DNA of 64,000 bases from an uncultured Bacteroidales bacterium (GCA_963698535.1 CAVORD010000001.1:1895823-1959822); one strand, 5' to 3'; positions 52,294 through 59,263 are shown, counted from the first letter of the stretch. The notes: a model not told the origin generated them from the sequence alone. Made by a program: numbers and translations.

Positions 52294-54926
52294 ATGAAAA
52301 AGCTAACAGCCCTGCTGATTCTGTTACTAACCATTACATCGTTATGGGGGCAAACAACCAAGAAGAGATACAAAATAGAGCGCACCGATACACCCCCTTC
52401 GATAGATGCTATTCTCGACGACGCAGCATGGGAAAAAGGAAACTGGTCGGGTGACTTCTGGCAATTTGAGCCCTACGATAACCTCCCACCGTCGCAACCA
52501 ACAGAATTCAAACTCCTTTATGATGATTCATTCATCTATTTCGCCGTTAAATGTTATGATTCCTCACCCGACAGTATCATTAACAGGATGACCAGGCGCG
52601 ATAATGTTGAAGGTGACTTTGTTGGTGTAATGTTCGACAGTTATCACGACCTTAGAACCAGTTTTTCATTTTTTGTCAGCTCTTCAGGGGTTAAAATGGA
52701 TATTATCCACTCCAGCAACGGTCAGAGCGAAGATCCCACATGGGATCCTATCTGGATGGTTAAAACTCAGATCTACGACTGGGGATGGGTTGCGGAAGCA
52801 AAGATCCCGTTTACCCAGTTAAGGTTCAACTCAAGTTCACGGGAAGTATGGGGCTTTGAAGTAACCAGAATGATCTACCGCTTCAATGAAATGAGTATTT
52901 GGAACCCTATTCCCAATACAGCGCCGGGATTTGTTCATATGTTCGGAGAACTTGATGGACTTCAGGGTGTTAAGCCAAGGAAGCAACTCGACCTTACACC
53001 GTTTGTAGTTGCCGGATTCGACAAATACGAGAAGGAAGATGGGAACCCATTTGCCACAGGTTTCGACTTCAAACGCAATATAGGACTTGACGGCAAAATA
53101 GGGATAACAAACAACCTAACACTCGACTTTACGATCAGTCCCGACTTTGGGCAGGTGGAGGCCGACCCCTCGGAAGTTAACCTCAGTGCGTTTGAAACAT
53201 TCTACGAGGAGAAGAGACCATTCTTTATTGAAGGGAAAAACATTACCAGCTTCAAGACAGGTATTGGCGATGGTGATATCGGTAACGATAATCTGTTTTA
53301 CTCACGCAGGATCGGGCGCAGACCATGGGGATACCCCGATCTTAATTCCGGGGAGTATGCTGATGTCCCTACCCAAACAAGTATTATTGGTGCAGCCAAA
53401 TTAACCGGGAAAACAGAGAACGGATGGTCGATAGGTGTAATTGAGAGTGTTGCAGCTGAGGAATTCGCCAAAATCGACAATAACGGTACGGTAAGAAAAG
53501 AATCGGTAGAGCCCCTCACAAACTATTTTGTGGCACGACTGCAGAAGGATGCAAACAAAGGAAATACAATTATCGGGGGTATGTACACAAATACCCTGCG
53601 CGATCTCGATACAGTAAGTGTTGATTATCTTCACAAAACGGCACATACCGGAGGAATTGACTTTTCACAGTTCTTCAAGGATAAAAACTATGTCTTCCAG
53701 GCTAATATGGCTGTCAGTAAGGTGTATGGTTCAGAAGAGGCCATCGACAGGACCCAGAAATCATCAAGAAGGTATTTTCAGCGACCCGATAATGATTATG
53801 TCGATTATGATCCTGCCAAGAACCTCACTTTCTGGACATGGCGGAAATATCTCAATTTGGAAAATAGGTGGCAACTGGAACTTTATGATTTTCAACCTTT
53901 GGAAATCACCCGGATTTGAACTAAATGATCTTGGCTACCTAAGAGATGCCGACCAGATACTTAATGTTGTGTGGTCGGGATATAACATTAACCAGCCTTT
54001 CAGTATATTCAGGAATATGCGGTTTAATTTCAACTTGTGGAACGGATGGGATTTCGGAGGGGTATATCATGGTATCGGTGGTAACATTAACATTAATACA
54101 CAGTTCAAGAACTACTGGAGATTAAGTACCGGAATCAACCGCGATGGAGAATCACTCGTTAACGGTTTCCTGAGAGGAGGACCGGCAATGCTGCATCCGG
54201 GAGGTAGCAATTATAATATTTTCCTGGGAACCGACGACAGGAAGAAATTAAACTTCACTATTAATTCCAATTTTAACAAAACCGATGATGATGCCGGTGA
54301 ATCGCTGAGGTTAGGATTAGGAATTACCTACAGGCCTGTCAATACACTCAGGATAAGTCTGAATCCGGCCTATTCCAGATCATCATCTGAACTACAATAT
54401 ATTACAGATCTATCCTTTGGTTCGGATGATAGGTACATCTTCGGGGCTATTGACCAGAAAGTTCTTAGCATGTCGCTCAGGATAAACTATAATCTGACCC
54501 CCGATCTTACAATCCAGTATTGGGGTCAGCCCTTCATTGCAAGCGGGAAATATTCAAGAATAAAGATGATAACAAATACCCCACAGGCTGAAAGTTTCGG
54601 CGACAGATTCTATACTTTTTCCGGTACTGAAATAGGATATGACGCAGGGGCGGGGGAATATCTTATTGACGAAGACAACAATGGCTCTACAGATTACAGA
54701 GTGGAGAATCCAAACTTCAACGTCAGTGAGTTCCTCTCCAACTTTGTGGTCAGATGGGAGTTTGTTCCGGGATCCACTGTTTACCTGGTATGGTCGCAGA
54801 CGCGAGGAGCATAGCAACGATTCAGGCATTATGAAGTTTGGCGACGATATCGACGATCTTTTCTCGGTAAATAAACCTTACAACACCGTCCTGCTGAAAT
54901 TCTCATACCGGTTTGGATTGAGATAA
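52294..54926 (+). pseudogene. DUF5916 / CBM9-like outer-membrane-associated protein, two +1 frameshifts (about 53825 and about 54805)
   Basis: Three consecutive ORFs in frames 1>2>0 continue one protein: ...DYDPAKNLT | LSGHGGNISIWKIGG... and ...VYLVWSQTR | EEHSNDSG.... Confidence 0.7.
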
Positions 54927-55319
54927 GGGGATTTGTAATCAAATATCACCTGGTCCGTCGAGATATCCGTTATGTTCGCAATGAGCTGTTTATCCATTTT
55001 TTATCTTTGCGATCTTTGCCTTAACTTGGCGTACTTTGCGGTTAAAATGAACTTCTGAGGCACCCTCTTACCTTAATTAATTAAGGAAGTCTTCAGCAAA
55101 GATAACGCTCCTCTATGTTTGTAAATATCAGTAGTTTAACCACCCTGAATATAATCCATATGATATGGAACAAATCTCCTATCCCTATTTAGAAGTGTTA
55201 TAAAAATCACATATAATGTGTATTTTCTTCAACAAATCTTATATTTGTTTGGTACAATAATTGCAATCTAAGTTTTAGATGTTATTATAAAAACAGTAAT
55301 TAACCAAAAAAGGATAGAC

Positions 55320-55850
55320 ATGTTTATAAAGAAAACAACCCTGCTGATCGCCCTGATAGTAATGATGGGAGCAACTGTATCAGCACAGACATTTAAGTAC
55401 ATCGGTGCTGACAAGTGTAAAATGTGTCACAACAAACCAGCAACCGGTGAACAGTACAAAAAGTGGACAGAGGAGAGCCATTCAAAGGCTTTAAAATCTC
55501 TCTCCAACCCTGCTTCTCTGGAGTATGCAAAGAAGAACGGTATTGCCGATCCAGCAAAAGAGCAGAAGTGTCTTAAGTGCCACTCCACTTTCCATTCAAT
55601 TGATGCAAAACTTCAGGGAGGAATCCTGCCTTACGAAGGTGTTTCATGCGAATCATGCCATGGACCAGGCAGTGCTTACAAGGCTCCAACAATTATGAAA
55701 GACCAGGCTCTATCAATTAAGAATGGCCTTATAGTACCAACCAAGGAGACTTGCGTTGCATGCCACAATAAAGAGAATCCTTTCTACAAGGAGTTTAACT
55801 ATGAGGCAGCTCTGAAGAAAATCGCTCATCCTAATCCTGCTGCCAAGTAG
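55320..55850 (+). CDS. secreted tetraheme c-type cytochrome
   Basis: Signal peptide and four CxxCH motifs (CKMCH, CLKCH, CESCH, CVACH) in 176 aa. Confidence 0.85.
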   Translation: MFIKKTTLLIALIVMMGATVSAQTFKYIGADKCKMCHNKPATGEQYKKWTEESHSKALKSLSNPASLEYAKKNGIADPAKEQKCLKCHSTFHSIDAKLQGGILPYEGVSCESCHGPGSAYKAPTIMKDQALSIKNGLIVPTKETCVACHNKENPFYKEFNYEAALKKIAHPNPAAK

Positions 55851-55874
55851 TATTAGCTTAAGATATAAGATAAA

Positions 55875-55911
55875 GAACCCCATAACCGAAAGGTTACGGG
55901 GTTCTTTTTTT
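55875..55911 (+). terminator. Rho-independent terminator after the cytochrome gene
   Basis: 13-bp stem (one mismatch) GAACCCCATAACC/GGTTACGGGGTTC with a GAAA loop, followed by T7. Confidence 0.85.
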
Positions 55912-55952: not shown

Positions 55953-56132
55953 CTACTTTTTCCAGTCGGCAATTATTATTTTATCACCAACCAGCTTAAC
56001 ATCAAGTTTTTGCTTGGCTCTCCACCCCAATTTTACAATATATTCCCTGGGTATGGTAAGGGCATAGCTGCTCCCGCCGGCTGTTTTCTGCAGACTGCGG
56101 ATGTTTCGCTCTTCAGATTTCCTGTTTGCCAT
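55953..56132 (-). CDS. AbrB/MazE/SpoVT-type DNA-binding domain protein (59 aa; below the ORF-track cutoff)
   Basis: My own translation: MANRKSEERNIRSLQKTAGGSSYALTIPREYIVKLGWRAKQKLDVKLVGDKIIIADWKK*. This is the swapped-hairpin pattern (GGSSYALTIP...LG...L.V...GD.III). Confidence 0.6.
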   Translation of the reverse strand: MANRKSEERNIRSLQKTAGGSSYALTIPREYIVKLGWRAKQKLDVKLVGDKIIIADWKK

Positions 56133-56160
56133 AGTTTAATAATTATGTAATTAATTATAT

Positions 56161-56196
56161 AGTTAACTACTGAGTTAATTACTGAGATAACTACTG
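56161..56196. promoter_or_regulatory. three tandem 12-bp direct repeats (candidate operator)
   Basis: AGTTAACTACTG / AGTTAATTACTG / AGATAACTACTG. Lies 29-64 nt upstream of the AbrB-like ATG and 40 nt downstream of the MerR/B12 gene stop. Confidence 0.5.
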
Positions 56197-56235
56197 CAAT
56201 TTAAGACTTTTATCCTGATAAGAAACAGGGTATTG

Positions 56236-57111
56236 CTACGAAAGAATGGATTTAAGTTCTTCAAAGGAGCCCGATCCGCTTTTCATGTCTGATCCTGACC
56301 CTGAGAAAGATAGTCTCAGGATGCCTCCTGCCAGGATCTTTTTCCCCTTGAATTTTGTTGTCAGCTCTTCTGAGATCCTCTCAGGATCAATCTGCCGGGA
56401 GGGAGATAAAACATATGTAACAACAATATCAGGGTTCCAGGAAGTGCTGGCAGCCACTGCGGATTCAAATGGAGTATTAGCCCCGAGGTAGAGAGTATTA
56501 TGACCCCACTTGCGTATAAAGTAGTTGTAACAGAGCAGAGGAATCTCATGGTATTCATTTTCAGGCAGGAAAAGAAGGACCTTTTTGCTTCCTGCACTCT
56601 TCTCCAGTGGCAAAGAATCGATCGCAGAAATGATCTTCTGCCTGATTATATTAGTTGCAAAATGCTCCGTCGCTATCCCTGCAGAACCTGTCTGCCACAT
56701 TATACCTATCCTCCTTAGGAAGGGGAAAATTAATCCCGATATGGTGAATTCAAAACCCTTTTCCATCACCGATCTTACAAGGATTCTGTTAATCTCCGAC
56801 TCATCATGAGACAATGTGGCAACAACAAGTGCATCGGTCTGGGTATCCTTATTAAAAAGCTCCCTCGAGATGAAAGAGACCTTCTCATCTATCTCATCGC
56901 CGGTGAGGGTCGCTATCCTGGAGATCTTAAACCCGTTACGTTTCAGGATGGCAATGTTTATTATCATCCTTAACTGGTCGTCTCCGTAAAGCCTCCTGTT
57001 TGTCTCTGTCCTTTCGGGATTGATAAAACTGTAACGACGCTCCCATACACGTATTGTATGAGCATTTATTCCCGACAGTATTTCCAGGTCCTTTATTGAG
57101 TACTTCTCCAT
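56236..57111 (-). CDS. MerR family regulator with C-terminal cobalamin-binding-like domain (CarH/LitR-like)
   Basis: N-terminal MerR HTH YSIKDLEILSGINAHTIRVWERRY. C-terminal Rossmann-like region with ENEYHEIPLL (ExHxx, Pro in place of the usual Gly), LGANTP and LAGG. Confidence 0.7.
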   Translation of the reverse strand: MEKYSIKDLEILSGINAHTIRVWERRYSFINPERTETNRRLYGDDQLRMIINIAILKRNGFKISRIATLTGDEIDEKVSFISRELFNKDTQTDALVVATLSHDESEINRILVRSVMEKGFEFTISGLIFPFLRRIGIMWQTGSAGIATEHFATNIIRQKIISAIDSLPLEKSAGSKKVLLFLPENEYHEIPLLCYNYFIRKWGHNTLYLGANTPFESAVAASTSWNPDIVVTYVLSPSRQIDPERISEELTTKFKGKKILAGGILRLSFSGSGSDMKSGSGSFEELKSILS

Positions 57112-57162
57112 CTTTTCTTCTCTATTCTAAATATAATTAATAATAATGAGAGGGGTAAAGTA

Positions 57163-57192
57163 TGTGATAAATAAAAAAAATCTGCAACAATA
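57163..57192 (-). terminator. Rho-independent terminator after the fasciclin gene
   Basis: Stem ATCTGCAA/TTGCAGAT. The minus strand is followed by T8. Confidence 0.75.
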
Positions 57193-57225
57193 ATTGCAGA
57201 TTTTTCTTTCGGTGGGATATGAATA

Positions 57226-58152
57226 TTACTTAGCGGGAGATGCCGGCAAAAGTACCTTGTCTATTGCGTGAACGACACCATTTGTTGCCTGTACATCGGT
57301 TACAATTATGTCAGCATCAATATTTATTGCTGGTGATGGACTTAATGTGACCTCTATCGGACCGTTAAGTGTCTGAACGGTACCTGCTGAGAGCTGTGCA
57401 GCCCTTACATTGCCGCTTACAACGTGATACTGAAGGATCGGAATGAGCTGCTCCTTTGTCAGTTGTGCAATACCTGTTACTCCAAGTTCAGTAAAGAGGG
57501 CTTCAAAAGCTGCATTTGTCGGTGCAAATACCGTGAAAGGTCCGGCTCCTTTGAGTGTTTCAACCAGTTCAGCTTTTACAACAGCCTCCACCAGAATGCT
57601 GAATGAACTGTTGGCAATAGCCTGGTCAACTACTGTTGGCGGGAGAAGAACCTTATCAATTGCGTGTATGACACCATTCTTGACATCCACATCAGCAATA
57701 ACAACAGTTGAGCTGTTGTTGATCTTAACATTCATGCCAACATTGATATTCATACTTATTGCATCGTTATTTCTCTTACTCAGGGAATTGAAATAACCTG
57801 TAGAGAGCATGGCTGCCTTTTTCTCCTCTCCTAATACGTGGTATAAGAGAATAGGTGTAAGGGCCTCAGCTGAAAGATCGGCAACACCCGAAACACCAAG
57901 CTGACTGAATAGAGCTGTGAATGCGTCGTTTGTTGGTGCAAACACAGTAAAGTTTCCCTCTCCGTTGAGAACATCAACCAGATCAGCTTTAGTTAAAGCA
58001 TCAACCAGAATTGAGAAGTTGTTGTTTGAGACTGCGTACTCAGCAATTGTCATATCCATTACTGATTTCTCTTTTTCCTCTTTTTCGCATGATGCAAAAA
58101 TTAGTGTGGAAAAAATCATAAATACCGTAAAAATAGTTCCTAGCTTTTTCAT
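57226..58152 (-). CDS. fasciclin (FAS1) domain lipoprotein, two FAS1 domains
   Basis: Lipobox FASC. Duplicated FTVFAPTN(D/A)AF ... NGV(I/V)HAIDKVLLP. Confidence 0.9.
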   Translation of the reverse strand: MKKLGTIFTVFMIFSTLIFASCEKEEKEKSVMDMTIAEYAVSNNNFSILVDALTKADLVDVLNGEGNFTVFAPTNDAFTALFSQLGVSGVADLSAEALTPILLYHVLGEEKKAAMLSTGYFNSLSKRNNDAISMNINVGMNVKINNSSTVVIADVDVKNGVIHAIDKVLLPPTVVDQAIANSSFSILVEAVVKAELVETLKGAGPFTVFAPTNAAFEALFTELGVTGIAQLTKEQLIPILQYHVVSGNVRAAQLSAGTVQTLNGPIEVTLSPSPAINIDADIIVTDVQATNGVVHAIDKVLLPASPAK

Positions 58153-58500
58153 GAGTTCTGTTTTTTATTTGGTTTATGAAGAAGAAACATCATGAAGATT
58201 ATTTTGTTCATATTTTTGTTCGTTTATTTAGTCATTTATACTGCTAAACAGGTTCTATAGTGGCTTATTCTATACCATATATACTTGATTATTTGTCTAT
58301 TACAGTATGTTAAAAAAATTTATATTATTTTATATTTTTTTCTGTATTTTTATTCATTTGTCATATTGACATCATAAATTCCACCTTGTTTTACAGGGTC
58401 ATTACCCCTCGTAATCTTCTTTATTCTCTTTTTCCCTACGGCTGAAGCCAGTGGAATTTGTATTAAAATATTAAAAGGGCATTAGCCCAATATATAAGTG

Positions 58501-58568
58501 GTGGTGGATTAGCTTCGGTGATCCTGGAGGGGGTGATCAATAAACAATAGCCCGTTAGTGCCTGCGGG
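58501..58568. repeat. diverged copy A of an approximately 66-bp repeat family (GGATTA..CGGTGATCC...GCCCGTTAGTGCCTGCGG)
   Basis: Aligns with 58678-58746. An 18-nt identical core at 58550-58567 matches 58727-58744, offset exactly 177 bp. Confidence 0.6.
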
Positions 58569-58677: not shown

Positions 58678-58746
58678 AACGCGGATTACCTCCGGTGATC
58701 CGGTCTGGGGTGGCCATTCAACAAAAGCCCGTTAGTGCCTGCGGCA
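58678..58746. repeat. copy B of the same approximately 66-bp repeat family
   Basis: See copy A. Its 5' motif GCGGATTACCT recurs at 59344-59354. Confidence 0.6.
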
Positions 58747-58836
58747 CTTCGCGGGTTTGTTTCATTGCCCGCTCATGCAAGCATGGCGGGCATGAAATAA
58801 AAAACCCGCCAGCGAAGCTGAACGGGCTTTTGTTGA
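58718..58836 (-). other. approximately 120-nt rod-like nested hairpin immediately 3' of tRNA-Cys
   Basis: Outer perfect 16-bp stem: 58718-58733 pairs with 58821-58836. Middle stem CTTCGC+GGGTTT pairs with AAACCC+GCGAAG. Inner stem GCCCGC/GCGGGC. Apex CATGC-AA-GCATG. Confidence 0.55.
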
Positions 58837-58906
58837 GGTCGGTGGCGGATTCGAACCGCCGTACCTGGTTTTGCAGACCAATGCCTAGCCACTCGGCCAA
58901 CCGACC
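58836..58906 (-). tRNA. tRNA-Cys (anticodon GCA)
   Basis: Minus-strand 71 nt. Acceptor stem GGTCGGT/ACCGACC, anticodon stem TTGGT/ACCAG, loop CTGCAAA, T-arm GGCGG-TTCGAAT-CCGCC. No encoded CCA. Confidence 0.9.
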
Positions 58907-59263
58907 CTGATTATATAACTCTTGTACATTAAAGAACATCTTCTTCACCCCCTTGGGTGGCGGATTGCTCATCATCTCCTTCAGACATGCTTCGCGAGCT
59001 CTCTCCTTTCAGTCGTTCGGTTCGAACCGCCTTTGCCACTCCTGTCCGCCGAAGCTTTAGCGAAGGCGGGCGGCCAACCGACCCTGATTATATAACTCTT
59101 GTACATTAAAGAACATCTTCTTCACCCCCTTGGGTGGCGGATTGCTCATCATGTCCTTCAGACATGCTTCGTGAGCTCTCTCCTTTCAGTCGTTCGGTTC
59201 GAACCGCCTTTGCCACTCCTGTCCGCCGAAGCTTTAGCGAAGGCGGGCGGCCAACCGACCCTG
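58895..59263 (-). repeat. 177-bp tandem repeat (2 full units + 15-bp partial) derived from the tRNA-Cys gene and its upstream flank
   Basis: Units 58895-59071 and 59072-59248 differ at 2 positions (58976 C/G, 58995 C/T). Each unit carries the tRNA 5' end CGGCCAACCGACCC and both T-arm halves (GGTGGCGGATT ... TTCGAACCGCC), separated by a 53-nt insert. Confidence 0.85.

What the first reader, a model, noticed from the sequence alone, without database searches (positions are those of the whole stretch)
55953..58152. CarH-like MerR/B12 regulator lies beside a 3x12-bp direct-repeat array and an unlisted AbrB-like ORF
The MerR-HTH plus cobalamin-binding-like architecture is that of CarH/LitR light-responsive repressors. 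In characterised cases these bind tandem direct repeats as B12-dependent oligomers. Three phased 12-bp repeats (AGTTAACTACTG x3, 56161-56196) lie exactly between this gene and a 59-aa AbrB/SpoVT-type ORF that is too short for the ORF track. A two-domain fasciclin lipoprotein gene lies immediately upstream on the same strand. The B12 motif is atypical (ExHxxP instead of ExHxxG), so ligand use is uncertain.
Basis: partly seen in the sequence, partly recalled or inferred. Interest (0 to 1): 0.6.

Follow-up and report, generated by a model that had tools for sequence, protein, structure and literature searches.

The report
CarH-like gene beside unrelated AbrB operator
A B12-type (CarH-family) light-regulator gene is really here, but the 12-bp repeat array next to it belongs to the small AbrB-like gene that follows it. 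The regulator's own conserved binding site lies upstream of the neighbouring fasciclin gene instead.

Summary
The link it drew is not supported.

**The regulator.** The 291-aa protein is a CarH/LitR-family member. It has a MerR wHTH with RxWERRY, an intact Wx9EH and a B12 motif, and its best sequence and fold matches are T. thermophilus CarH. ExHxxP is not atypical: the CarH literature writes the motif as D/ExHx2G/P.

**The repeat array.** The array at 56161-56196 really runs 56137-56196, as four to five 8-bp palindromes every 12 bp. It is absent from 27 orthologous loci downstream of the CarH-like gene. It scores negative against the family's operator model. Arrays of the same design precede about 60-aa AbrB-like homologues in 80 metagenome loci, and none of those carries a CarH-like gene. 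The array is therefore most likely the AbrB-like gene's own operator (autoregulation is inferred).

**The likely CarH operator.** It lies at 58193-58240, upstream of the fasciclin gene. It consists of 12-bp-phased direct repeats with a TGAACA (TnnACA) core and is conserved across related Bacteroidales loci.

**Wider linkage.** Two-domain fasciclin genes and this CarH clade are reciprocally linked. In some lineages they sit beside crtI/crtB.

**Verdict.** This is a new variant of a known kind, of moderate interest.

The parts
58193..58240 (-). Probable CarH-type operator. Read on the minus strand, the 12-bp-phased direct repeats are TATAAATGACTA (58240-58229), AATAAACGAACA (58228-58217) and AAAATATGAACA (58216-58205), plus a weak fourth unit AAATAATCTTCA (58204-58193). 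The core is TGAACA, which fits TnnACA.
   Evidence: A 36-nt PWM trained on 18 related loci, not on the window, scores it 31.0. The next unrelated site in 128 kb searched scores 4-7. The same architecture lies upstream of fasciclin, or of the regulator gene itself, in related loci. TnnACA is the core of characterised CarH repeats (PMC9304148).
58175..58192 (-). Conserved block TGATGTTT..., whose family consensus is TGATGTTTAnTGTTCAAA. It starts 12 nt after the third repeat. It is presumed to be the core promoter of the fasciclin gene; the promoter type is not identified.
   Evidence: Alignment of 21 loci plus the window. Its role is inferred.
57226..58152 (-). Gene for a probable lipoprotein with two FAS1 (fasciclin) domains. 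It is the likely regulated target.
   Evidence: Pfam Fasciclin 190.7 bits, 2 domains. It lies directly upstream on the same strand as the regulator gene in 27 of 80 loci found through the regulator. In 5 of 5 look-ups made through the fasciclin protein, the regulator gene follows it.
57173..57201 (-). Hairpin ATCTGCAA-TTATTG-TTGCAGAT followed by T8. It is probably the terminator of the fasciclin transcript.
   Evidence: Read. The same ATCTGCA..TGCAGATTTTTT element is conserved between the fasciclin and regulator genes in most related loci. The consensus scan did not flag it.
57128..57135 (-). TATATTTA, which resembles the Bacteroidota -7 promoter box (TAnnTTTG). It ends 16 nt before the ATG of the regulator gene and is probably that gene's own promoter.
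   Evidence: 'tATATTTAtc' is conserved at the same place in related loci. The -7 consensus is from my own knowledge of Bacteroidota promoters.
56236..57111 (-). Gene for a CarH/LitR-family regulator of 291 aa. It has a MerR wHTH (IRVWERRY), a four-helix bundle with W139x9E149H150, and a Rossmann B12 domain with E186xH188xxP191...T232xV234...G262G263.
56137..56196 (-). Tandem array of 8-bp palindromes every 12 bp. A fourth unit is at 56149-56160 and a weak fifth at 56137-56148. It is proposed to be the operator of the AbrB-like gene that starts at 56132.
   Evidence: Family-wide 12-bp periodicity upstream of homologues is shown.
55953..56132 (-). Gene for a 59-aa stand-alone AbrB/MazE/SpoVT-type (swapped-hairpin) DNA-binding protein.
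   Evidence: Pfam match. 160 cluster representatives, mostly about 60 aa. AF2 pLDDT 85, and the best fold matches are MazE, AbrB-N, SpoVT and VapB.
55872..55907 (.). G+C-rich hairpin shared by the AbrB-like gene and the convergent cytochrome gene. It is terminator-like on both strands.
   Evidence: 16 pairs, 7 of them G-C.
55294..55304 (+). A single extra copy of the array unit, CAGTAATTAAC, ending 15 nt before the ATG of the multihaem cytochrome c554-like gene (55320-55850). It may be a second target site, or it may be chance.
   Evidence: This 11-mer occurs only twice in the window: here and inside the array.

Best explanation
Two independent regulatory modules happen to lie side by side.

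**Module 1: fasciclin gene and CarH-like gene.** The 291-aa CarH-family protein is made from its own small promoter. As a B12-bound oligomer it binds the 12-bp-phased direct repeats at 58193-58240, whose core TGAACA fits TnnACA. These repeats abut the promoter of the two-FAS1 lipoprotein gene, so binding represses that gene. Loss of the oligomer relieves repression. By analogy with CarH, the trigger would be photolysis of adenosylcobalamin. The architecture, motifs, fold, and the conservation and position of the operator are shown here. B12 binding, the light response and repression are inferred.

**Module 2: array and AbrB-like gene.** The 59-aa swapped-hairpin protein probably dimerises. It probably binds the four to five 8-bp palindromes spaced 12 bp apart at 56137-56196, directly upstream of its own start codon, and so autoregulates. 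The fold, the family-wide array design and the independence from CarH are shown here. Binding and autoregulation are inferred.

The array is not the CarH-like protein's operator.
For: **The regulator is CarH-like.**
- The best solved relatives are T. thermophilus CarH/LitR (3whp, 5c8d), E about 1e-22 over residues 4-246.
- The AF2 model has pLDDT 83. Its best fold matches are full-length CarH (E 2e-13) and the CarH and CtMerR B12-binding domains (TM 0.65-0.77).
- W139, E149, H150, E186 and H188 are invariant in 33 homologues.
- Wider family members sit next to crtI, and one next to a photolyase-like gene.

**The likely operator is upstream of the fasciclin gene.**
- The PWM outlier scores 31.0 at 58240-58205.
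- The same design recurs upstream of the first fasciclin gene. Where no fasciclin gene intervenes (L011, L016, L021), it lies directly upstream of the regulator gene.
- It also recurs in loci found through the fasciclin protein: L166 scores 26.7, and L170 and L171 score 23.1.
- The first and third repeats are the best conserved. This matches how one CarH dimer contacts two non-adjacent repeats (PMC9304148).

**The array belongs to the AbrB-like gene.**
- 80 of 80 metagenome loci with AbrB-like homologues lack MerR-B12, fasciclin and cytochrome genes.
- Their upstream regions show lag-12 self-similarity of 0.43 against a baseline of about 0.27, and a control region is flat.
- The units are near-palindromes such as CTACGTAG, ATACGTAT, TCACGTGA and TTACGTAA. 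Their sequence class tracks the protein lineage.
- The core motifs hardly occur elsewhere in those loci.
- L161 has TTCAGTAATTAA repeats, close to the window's CAGTAATTAACT.
- No toxin partner is present.

**Precedent.** MraZ, which has an AbrB-type fold, binds four phased boxes upstream of its own promoter (PMC12957436).
Against: - No binding, light or B12 data exist for either protein.
- The operator period is 12 bp, not the 11 bp of characterised CarH operators.
- The first repeat reads TGACT(A/C), not TnnACA.
- Three related loci have a diverged operator: L162 scores 5.9, L163 -2.4 and L168 6.5.
- A three-FAS1 paralogue with no adjacent regulator gene (L164) still has ATGAACA upstream and scores 15.3. 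So part of the signal may be a promoter element.
- One of four published light-response signature elements, GxxH, is not met; the window has N-E-Y-H (alignment).
- The His that follows the Trp in TtCarH is Gln here.
- Several related contigs carry anaerobe markers such as HydF. That makes a light signal less obvious.
- For the AbrB-like module, many of the 80 loci are close relatives, so there are far fewer independent lineages than loci.
- The transcription start of the AbrB-like gene is unknown, so the position of the array relative to +1 is not settled.
Confidence: 0.68

Rival explanations
1. The 3x12-bp array is the CarH-like protein's operator, and it puts the AbrB-like gene under B12/light control.
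For: - The array has the same 12-bp period as the family's operator.
- In the best register the units share T..AAC with the family consensus, 6 of 12 positions: CAGTAGTTAACT against ATATAATGAACA.
- The array lies immediately downstream of the regulator gene.
Against: - The PWM score is -12 or lower, against +31 for the site upstream of the fasciclin gene.
- No unit has ACA. The units are palindromes, which suits a symmetric dimer rather than CarH's asymmetric direct repeats.
- The array and the AbrB-like gene are absent from the orthologous loci.
- Arrays of the same design accompany AbrB-like genes in 80 loci without any CarH-like gene.
Confidence: 0.04
2. The array upstream of the AbrB-like gene is not a protein operator. 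It acts as RNA, with adjacent palindromes pairing into alternative 8-bp hairpins in the leader, or it is a lineage-specific promoter element.
For: - Adjacent palindromes separated by 4 nt can pair with each other (from the sequence).
- A TTG(C/T)A motif just upstream of many arrays would place the transcription start near the first unit, so the array may be transcribed (this is inference).
Against: - The predicted RNA fold is unremarkable: -13.2 kcal/mol, z = -1.6, and 13 of 200 shuffles fold as well.
- The array always precedes a gene for a DNA-binding domain.
- Its sequence class tracks that protein's lineage.
Confidence: 0.1
3. The CarH-like protein works like CarH on DNA but senses B12 availability or redox state rather than light. 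This would suit lineages that live mostly in the dark.
For: - Related contigs carry hydrogenase maturation genes.
- The GxxH signature element is missing, and the His after the Trp is Gln.
- In the window and in nearly all of the Bacteroidales loci examined (L162 is the exception), the regulon is not a carotenoid cluster.
Against: - Wx9EH, the motif that contacts the adenosyl group and marks photoreceptor CarH, is invariant.
- Relatives sit beside crtI, crtB and photolyase-like genes.
Confidence: 0.2
4. The TGAACA-containing repeats upstream of the fasciclin gene are mainly a promoter, a -35-like element plus an A-rich upstream region for some sigma factor. They are not the CarH-like protein's binding site.
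For: - The third repeat is the most conserved unit and sits 17 nt before a conserved TTTAAT-like stretch.
- Fasciclin paralogues without an adjacent regulator gene also have (T)TGAACA upstream (L164, L165).
Against: - The AATGACTC unit, conserved 24 bp upstream, and the 12-bp phasing are not explained by a promoter alone.
- The array precedes the regulator gene itself where no fasciclin gene is present (L011, L016, L021).
- In known CarH operators one repeat also contains the -35 element, so the two roles are compatible.
Confidence: 0.15

Closest known systems
CarH/LitR of Thermus thermophilus (PDB 5C8D/5C8E/3WHP), and CarH of Bacillus megaterium and the myxobacteria
   Same: - Three-part architecture: MerR wHTH with RxWERRY, a helix bundle with Wx9EH, and a Rossmann B12 domain with ExHxx(G/P).
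- It is the best sequence and fold match.
- The operator is built of tandem direct repeats with a TnnACA core next to the promoter, and the outer repeats are the best conserved.
   Different: - Only about 25% identity.
- The repeat period is 12 bp instead of 11.
- The first repeat reads TGACT(A/C).
- The His after the Trp is Gln, and the GxxH signature element is absent.
- The adjacent target is a fasciclin lipoprotein gene rather than a carotenoid operon.
- The regulator gene has its own promoter behind a terminator.
CtMerR B12-binding photoreceptor of Chloracidobacterium thermophilum (PDB 8JBS/8JBT)
   Same: MerR-type protein with a light-responsive B12-binding domain. The structural match to that domain has TM 0.64-0.66.
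   Different: A weaker match than TtCarH. Its DNA targets were not compared here.
MraZ
   Same: An AbrB/SpoVT-type fold that binds cooperatively to a phased array of short boxes upstream of its own promoter (PMC12957436).
   Different: - MraZ is larger, forms octamers, and heads the dcw operon.
- Its boxes are GTG(G/T) with 6-nt spacers, a 10-bp period.
- Here the protein is a single 59-aa domain, the units are 8-bp palindromes with a 12-bp period, and the gene stands alone.
MazE / VapB / AbrB-N swapped-hairpin DNA-binding domains
   Same: Pfam PF04014 match. The best fold matches are MazE 1ub4_C (TM 0.70, rmsd 1.6 Å) and then AbrB-N, SpoVT and VapB. These proteins autoregulate through operators in their own promoters.
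   Different: There is no C-terminal toxin-binding tail and no toxin gene nearby in the window or in the related loci. So it is not a toxin-antitoxin antidote.
AstaP, a carotenoid-binding FAS1 protein of green algae
   Same: A secreted FAS1-domain protein induced by photooxidative stress (PMC10147662, PMC7477208). Here a FAS1 lipoprotein gene is linked to a light-type regulator and, in some lineages, to crtI/crtB.
   Different: - Sequence similarity is only generic: E 2e-10, against 5e-44 for TGFBIp.
- A cyanobacterial AstaP homologue did not bind carotenoids.
- Carotenoid binding was not tested here.

Membership tests
CarH/LitR family | N-terminal MerR-type winged helix with the RxWERRY recognition helix | tested here: met
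   MerR_1 54.9 bits. I20-R-V-W-E-R-R-Y27 is present, and W23, E24, R25 and R26 are invariant in 33 homologues. The motif is defined in PMC9304148.
CarH/LitR family | Four-helix bundle with an intact Wx9EH motif, which distinguishes CarH from the B12-independent CarA | tested here: met
   W139-x9-E149-H150 aligns with the motif of TtCarH and is invariant in the family alignment. B12-binding_2 scores 28.8 bits, above its cut-off of 23.
CarH/LitR family | Rossmann-type B12-binding motif D/ExHx2G/P-x41-SxT/V-x22-27-GG | tested here: met
   The window has E186-Y-H188-E-I-P191, then 40 residues, T232-Y-V234, then 27 residues, G262-G263. Ser is replaced by Thr and the spacing is one residue shorter. 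Pfam B12-binding alone is below its cut-off (19.4 against 32.1), but the predicted fold matches CarH B12-binding domains.
CarH/LitR family | Published light-response signature GxxW, EH, GxxH, GxxxP (PMC11796333) | tested here: inconclusive
   G136xxW139, E149H150 and G210xxxP214 are present. GxxH is not: the window has N185-E-Y-H188, and the family consensus is also N. Three of four elements are met.
CarH/LitR family | Operator of three or more tandem direct repeats with a TnnACA core, overlapping the promoter | tested here: met
   The site at 58193-58240 has TGAACA and CGAACA units. It is conserved across loci and abuts a conserved promoter-like block. That the protein binds it is inferred.
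CarH/LitR family | 11-bp repeat period of the characterised operators | tested here: not met
   The period is 12 bp in the window and in most related loci. An 11-bp spacing occurs occasionally, as in L004.
CarH/LitR family | AdoCbl binding, dark-state oligomer, and disassembly and release from DNA on illumination | not testable with these tools
   This needs purified protein, spectroscopy, SEC and EMSA.
AbrB/MazE/SpoVT (swapped-hairpin) DNA-binding domain | Sequence and fold of the swapped-hairpin domain | tested here: met
   PF04014 31.9 bits against a cut-off of 24.7, and 37 of 41 homologues match. The family profile hits AbrB-N at E 0.005. The AF2 model has pLDDT 85 and its best fold matches are MazE, AbrB-N, SpoVT and VapB.
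Type II antitoxin (MazE/VapB type) | C-terminal toxin-binding extension and an adjacent toxin gene | tested here: not met
   The protein is 59 aa and consists of the domain only. A terminator follows the gene. Neighbouring genes in 17 related loci vary, and none is a consistent partner.
MraZ | Two tandem MraZ domains, first gene of the dcw cluster, GTG(G/T) boxes at a 10-bp period | tested here: not met
   The protein has a single 59-aa domain, there is no dcw context, and the units are palindromes at a 12-bp period.

The most novel reading that the evidence does not exclude
A Bacteroidota clade of CarH has a two-FAS1-domain surface lipoprotein as its main direct target, controlled through a 12-bp-phased operator in which the first and third repeats dominate. 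That FAS1 protein would be a light-induced carotenoid-binding or carotenoid-shuttling protein, a bacterial counterpart of algal AstaP. The fasciclin gene and the CarH-like gene are reciprocally linked. They lie next to crtI-crtB in one Bacteroidales MAG, and near crtI in Chitinophagaceae and in a Flavobacterium, where a photolyase-like gene is also nearby.
Probability: 0.2. Interest if true: 0.7.

Novelty: new variant of a known kind. Interest (0 to 1): 0.45.

Why it matters
**CarH biology.** CarH-type B12 photoreceptors have been studied almost entirely as repressors of carotenoid operons, acting through 11-bp repeats.
- If this reading holds, a large Bacteroidales clade uses the same protein design with a 12-bp operator.
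- It would control a secreted fasciclin lipoprotein. None of the five full-text searches on CarH/LitR, light-regulated or Bacteroidetes links to fasciclin returned a paper on it.
- That would give a concrete, testable handle on what bacterial FAS1 proteins do. One possibility is pigment handling under light, given the crtI/crtB neighbours and the AstaP precedent.
- It would also bear on whether anaerobic sediment and digester Bacteroidales sense light or B12.

**The AbrB-like module.** The work also defines a widespread mini-module: a gene for an AbrB-fold protein of about 60 aa, preceded by lineage-specific palindromes every 12 bp. It is a compact natural set of matched repressor-operator pairs.

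**For the scan.** Adjacency of a regulator gene and a repeat array is not evidence that they belong together.

Tried and rejected
- **Strict motif scan.** A scan for three TGAACA cores at one fixed spacing (each spacing from 8 to 15 bp tried) with at most 2 mismatches found nothing, because the middle repeat is degenerate. I replaced it with pair-distance histograms and a PWM.
- **Misleading peak.** The GAACA pair-distance peak at 36 bp was largely inflated by conserved coding sequence in Flavobacteriales loci. I did not use it as evidence.
- **Source lookup.** So the source is only inferred to be Bacteroidales-like, from homologues and synteny.
- **Locus search.** The 41-sequence AbrB-like alignment was too diverse for a locus search. 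An 8-sequence alignment worked.
- **Promoter and terminator scan.** The sigma-70 scan was uninformative: 7 hits against 7.6 expected. It also missed the A+T-rich terminator between the fasciclin and regulator genes.
- **RNA checks.** Rfam found only tRNA-Cys. The RNA fold of the array region is not significant.
- **Family libraries.** NCBIfam, PHROGs and PADLOC gave nothing useful for the AbrB-like protein.
- **Toxin-antitoxin reading.** I considered that the AbrB-like gene is half of a toxin-antitoxin pair and rejected it, because there is no partner gene and no tail.
- **Partition-site reading.** I considered that the array is a centromere or iteron of a partition system and rejected it. No ParA/ParM-type ORF stood out among the neighbours (judged from ORF sizes and N-terminal sequences, without a family search), and several loci appear to be chromosomal (neighbouring ORFs read as hisS- and ychF-like).
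- **AstaP-like reading.** Calling the fasciclin AstaP-like on sequence is not justified, since the similarity is only generic FAS1.
Full report
**Layout and check of the observation.** All four features lie on the minus strand, in this order:
- the fasciclin gene, 58152..57226;
- the MerR/B12 gene, 57111..56236;
- the repeat array;
- a 59-aa ORF, 56132..55953;
- a G+C-rich hairpin at about 55872-55907, shared with a convergent multihaem cytochrome c554-like gene at 55320-55850.

The three 12-bp units at 56161-56196 are as reported, but two of them carry one mismatch each (TRF score 58). The array is unique in the window, and none of 20 composition-preserving shuffles produces one. It is longer than reported. 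A fourth unit (core AATTAATT, 56149-56160) and a weak fifth (56137-56148) continue the 12-bp phase almost to the ATG. Each unit is an 8-bp palindrome (AGTTAACT) plus a 4-bp spacer. Pfam confirms the MerR_1, B12-binding_2, MazE/SpoVT-AbrB and double Fasciclin assignments.

**The regulator is a CarH/LitR-family protein.**
- Its best solved relatives by sequence are T. thermophilus CarH/LitR, E about 1e-22 over residues 4-246.
- An AlphaFold model built on 33 homologues has pLDDT 83. Its best fold matches are full-length CarH (E 2e-13) and the isolated B12-binding domains of TtCarH and CtMerR (TM 0.65-0.77).
- The recognition helix reads IRVWERRY.
- The Wx9EH motif (W139...E149 H150) and E186xH188 are invariant in the family alignment.
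Most homologues have Gly there, the closest ones have Pro, and others have Val or Ala.
- Some features differ. One of four published light-signature elements (GxxH) is missing. The His that follows the Trp in TtCarH is Gln here. NCBIfam's CarH equivalog model scores only 99 bits against a cut-off of 400.

**The array is not this regulator's operator.** I fetched 80 loci that encode relatives of the regulator.
- None encodes the AbrB-like ORF or the cytochrome.
- None of the 27 closest has a comparable array downstream of the regulator gene.
- The window is otherwise syntenic with these loci: S46 peptidase, SiaC, tRNA_edit, DUF5916 and FolB are shared. The window carries the cytochrome gene plus the array and AbrB-like gene where relatives carry ChaN, with or without TonB.

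**What is conserved instead.** TRF on the loci showed 12-bp-period repeats with an AATGAACA core upstream of fasciclin genes, or upstream of the regulator gene itself.
- GAACA pair distances peak at 12 and 24 bp.
- I trained a 36-nt weight matrix on 18 loci, excluding the window. It finds one outlier in the whole window: 58240-58205 on the minus strand, TATAAATGACTA AATAAACGAACA AAAATATGAACA, score 31.0.
- The site lies about 50 nt upstream of the fasciclin ATG. A block conserved across loci, TGATGTTTAnTGTTCAAA, follows it.
- TGAACA fits the TnnACA core of characterised CarH direct repeats. The pattern of strong outer repeats and a weak middle one matches how the TtCarH tetramer uses its operator.
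- The period differs from the known 11 bp: it is 12 bp.
- Between the fasciclin and regulator genes, the loci share a hairpin terminator and then a TATATTTA box (window 57201-57173 and 57135-57128). So the regulator gene appears to have its own promoter, and the fasciclin gene is the controlled unit.

**Strength and limits of the operator assignment.**
- In L011, L016 and L021, which lack a fasciclin gene, the repeats sit directly upstream of the regulator gene.
- In loci retrieved through the fasciclin protein, the site recurs in L166 (26.7) and in L170 and L171 (23.1). It is diverged in L162, L163 and L168, where the third repeat and the promoter block are kept.
- A three-FAS1 paralogue with no adjacent regulator gene (L164) also has ATGAACA upstream, score 15.3. 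So the third repeat may double as a promoter element, as the -35-containing repeat does in known CarH operators.
- Binding by the protein remains an inference.

**The fasciclin-regulator link is reciprocal and reaches carotenoid genes.**
- Fasciclin genes lie directly upstream on the same strand in 27 of the 80 loci.
- They are divergent in Chitinophagaceae, nearby in a Flavobacterium, and directly upstream in a deltaproteobacterial MAG.
- Starting from the fasciclin side, 5 of 5 look-ups of two-FAS1 orthologues of about 305 aa have the MerR/B12 gene immediately downstream. Neither of the 2 look-ups of three-FAS1 proteins of about 447 aa does.
- In L162, crtI-like and phytoene-synthase genes directly precede the fasciclin and regulator genes.
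- crtI homologues lie within 5 kb of the regulator gene in 12 further loci, and four of these also have a fasciclin gene.
- In L070 a gene with a photolyase FAD-binding domain is divergent from the regulator gene.
- This supports the CarH identity of the family. It also raises the possibility that these FAS1 proteins handle pigments, as algal AstaP does. The sequence similarity to AstaP is only generic.
- Neither CarH + fasciclin nor LitR + fasciclin returned a relevant paper, and neither did three broader searches on Bacteroidetes or light-regulated links.

**What the array is.**
- The 59-aa protein belongs to a family of mostly stand-alone proteins of about 60 aa: 160 cluster representatives at E ≤ 1e-3 among 1.84 billion proteins.
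- Of 41 members, 37 match PF04014. The family profile hits AbrB-N.
- The AF2 model has pLDDT 85. Its best fold matches are MazE (TM 0.70), AbrB-N, SpoVT and VapB.
- I fetched 80 metagenome loci with homologues of 57-72% identity. None has a MerR-B12, fasciclin or cytochrome gene.
- Nearly all have two to four tandem repeats ending 4-66 nt (typically about 15 nt) before the ATG.
- Across 63 distinct upstream regions, self-similarity is 0.43 at lag 12 and 0.36 at lag 24, against a baseline of about 0.27. A control region further upstream is flat.
- The units are near-palindromic 8-mers such as CTACGTAG, ATACGTAT, TCACGTGA and TTACGTAA. L161 has AATTAATT, and its repeat TTCAGTAATTAA resembles the window's CAGTAATTAACT. 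The sequence class follows the protein lineage.
- The core motifs almost never occur elsewhere in those loci.
- Neighbouring genes vary. Judged from their N-terminal sequences, some look like hisS, ychF and an ECF sigma factor, and others look like mobile-element genes. There is no toxin partner.
- The simplest reading is that dimers of the protein occupy their own phased palindromes and autoregulate. MraZ is a precedent for an AbrB-type fold acting on phased boxes upstream of its own promoter.
- An RNA-level role for the array is not supported by folding (z = -1.6), but it is not excluded.

**Verdict.**
- The CarH-like call is right, and the "atypical motif" caveat is unnecessary.
- The interesting remainder has three parts: a CarH clade with a 12-bp operator and a fasciclin target, occasionally next to crt genes; the open question of whether it senses light or B12 in these apparently anaerobic lineages; and a widespread AbrB-like gene with a palindrome array as a self-contained mini-module.
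- Every functional step (B12 binding, light response, repression, autoregulation) is inferred and needs the experiments listed.

Noticed in passing
window 55294-55304 (+): CAGTAATTAAC is 11 of the 12 bases of the array's middle unit. It occurs only twice in the window: inside the array and here, ending 15 nt before the ATG of the multihaem cytochrome c554-like gene. It may be a second site for the AbrB-like protein, or it may be chance. In related AbrB-like loci the core motifs hardly ever occur outside the array.
   Followed up: partly
window 52294-53919 and 53618-54814 (+): A CBM9/DUF5916 gene that is a single ORF of about 880 aa in related loci is split here into two overlapping ORFs in different frames (Pfam profile positions 4-233 and 225-526). 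This is a frameshift, so either a pseudogene or a sequencing error.
   Followed up: partly
window 58894-59247: A 177-nt unit is duplicated in tandem at 99% identity (58894-59070 and 59071-59247). The first copy begins inside the 5' end of tRNA-Cys (58835-58906, minus strand). Rfam finds nothing but the tRNA.
   Followed up: no
window 58506-58567 and 58683-58744: A second pair of 62-nt repeats at 82% identity is also spaced 177 nt apart, but out of phase with the duplication above. Both copies end in ...GCCCGTTAGTGCCTGCGG. This is unexplained.
   Followed up: no
L162 1284-3736 (Bacteroidales MAG contig_14894): crtI-like (PF01593) and phytoene synthase (PF00494) genes lie directly upstream, on the same strand, of the fasciclin and MerR/B12 pair. 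crtI homologues are also near the regulator gene in 12 other loci.
   Followed up: partly
L070 3691-4779 (Flavobacterium sp. Sd200): A gene with a photolyase FAD-binding domain is divergent from the CarH-like gene. crtI and a two-FAS1 fasciclin gene lie within a few kb.
   Followed up: partly
L152 3001-3201 and 4168-4374: The 3' part of the AbrB-like gene is present twice, about 1.2 kb apart. The two copies flank two small ORFs that resemble phage antirepressor/ORF6N-type proteins. This looks like an insertion into or next to the gene.
   Followed up: no
L086, L087, L089, L090, L100, L102 and many others, about 60-130 nt upstream of the AbrB-like gene: A conserved G+C-rich stretch...GGCATGTGCTGCA...AAAAGCATGACA...GAAGGGACGG..., precedes the array in many metagenome loci whose arrays and proteins otherwise differ. 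Its nature is unknown: it could be the end of a gene, an RNA, or the end of a mobile element.
   Followed up: no
window 58175-58192 and the equivalent positions in L002-L023: The conserved block after the operator, TGATGTTTAnTGTTCAAA, contains TGTTCA, the reverse complement of the repeat core TGAACA. It matches neither the sigma-70 -10 consensus nor the Bacteroidota -7 consensus well.
   Followed up: no
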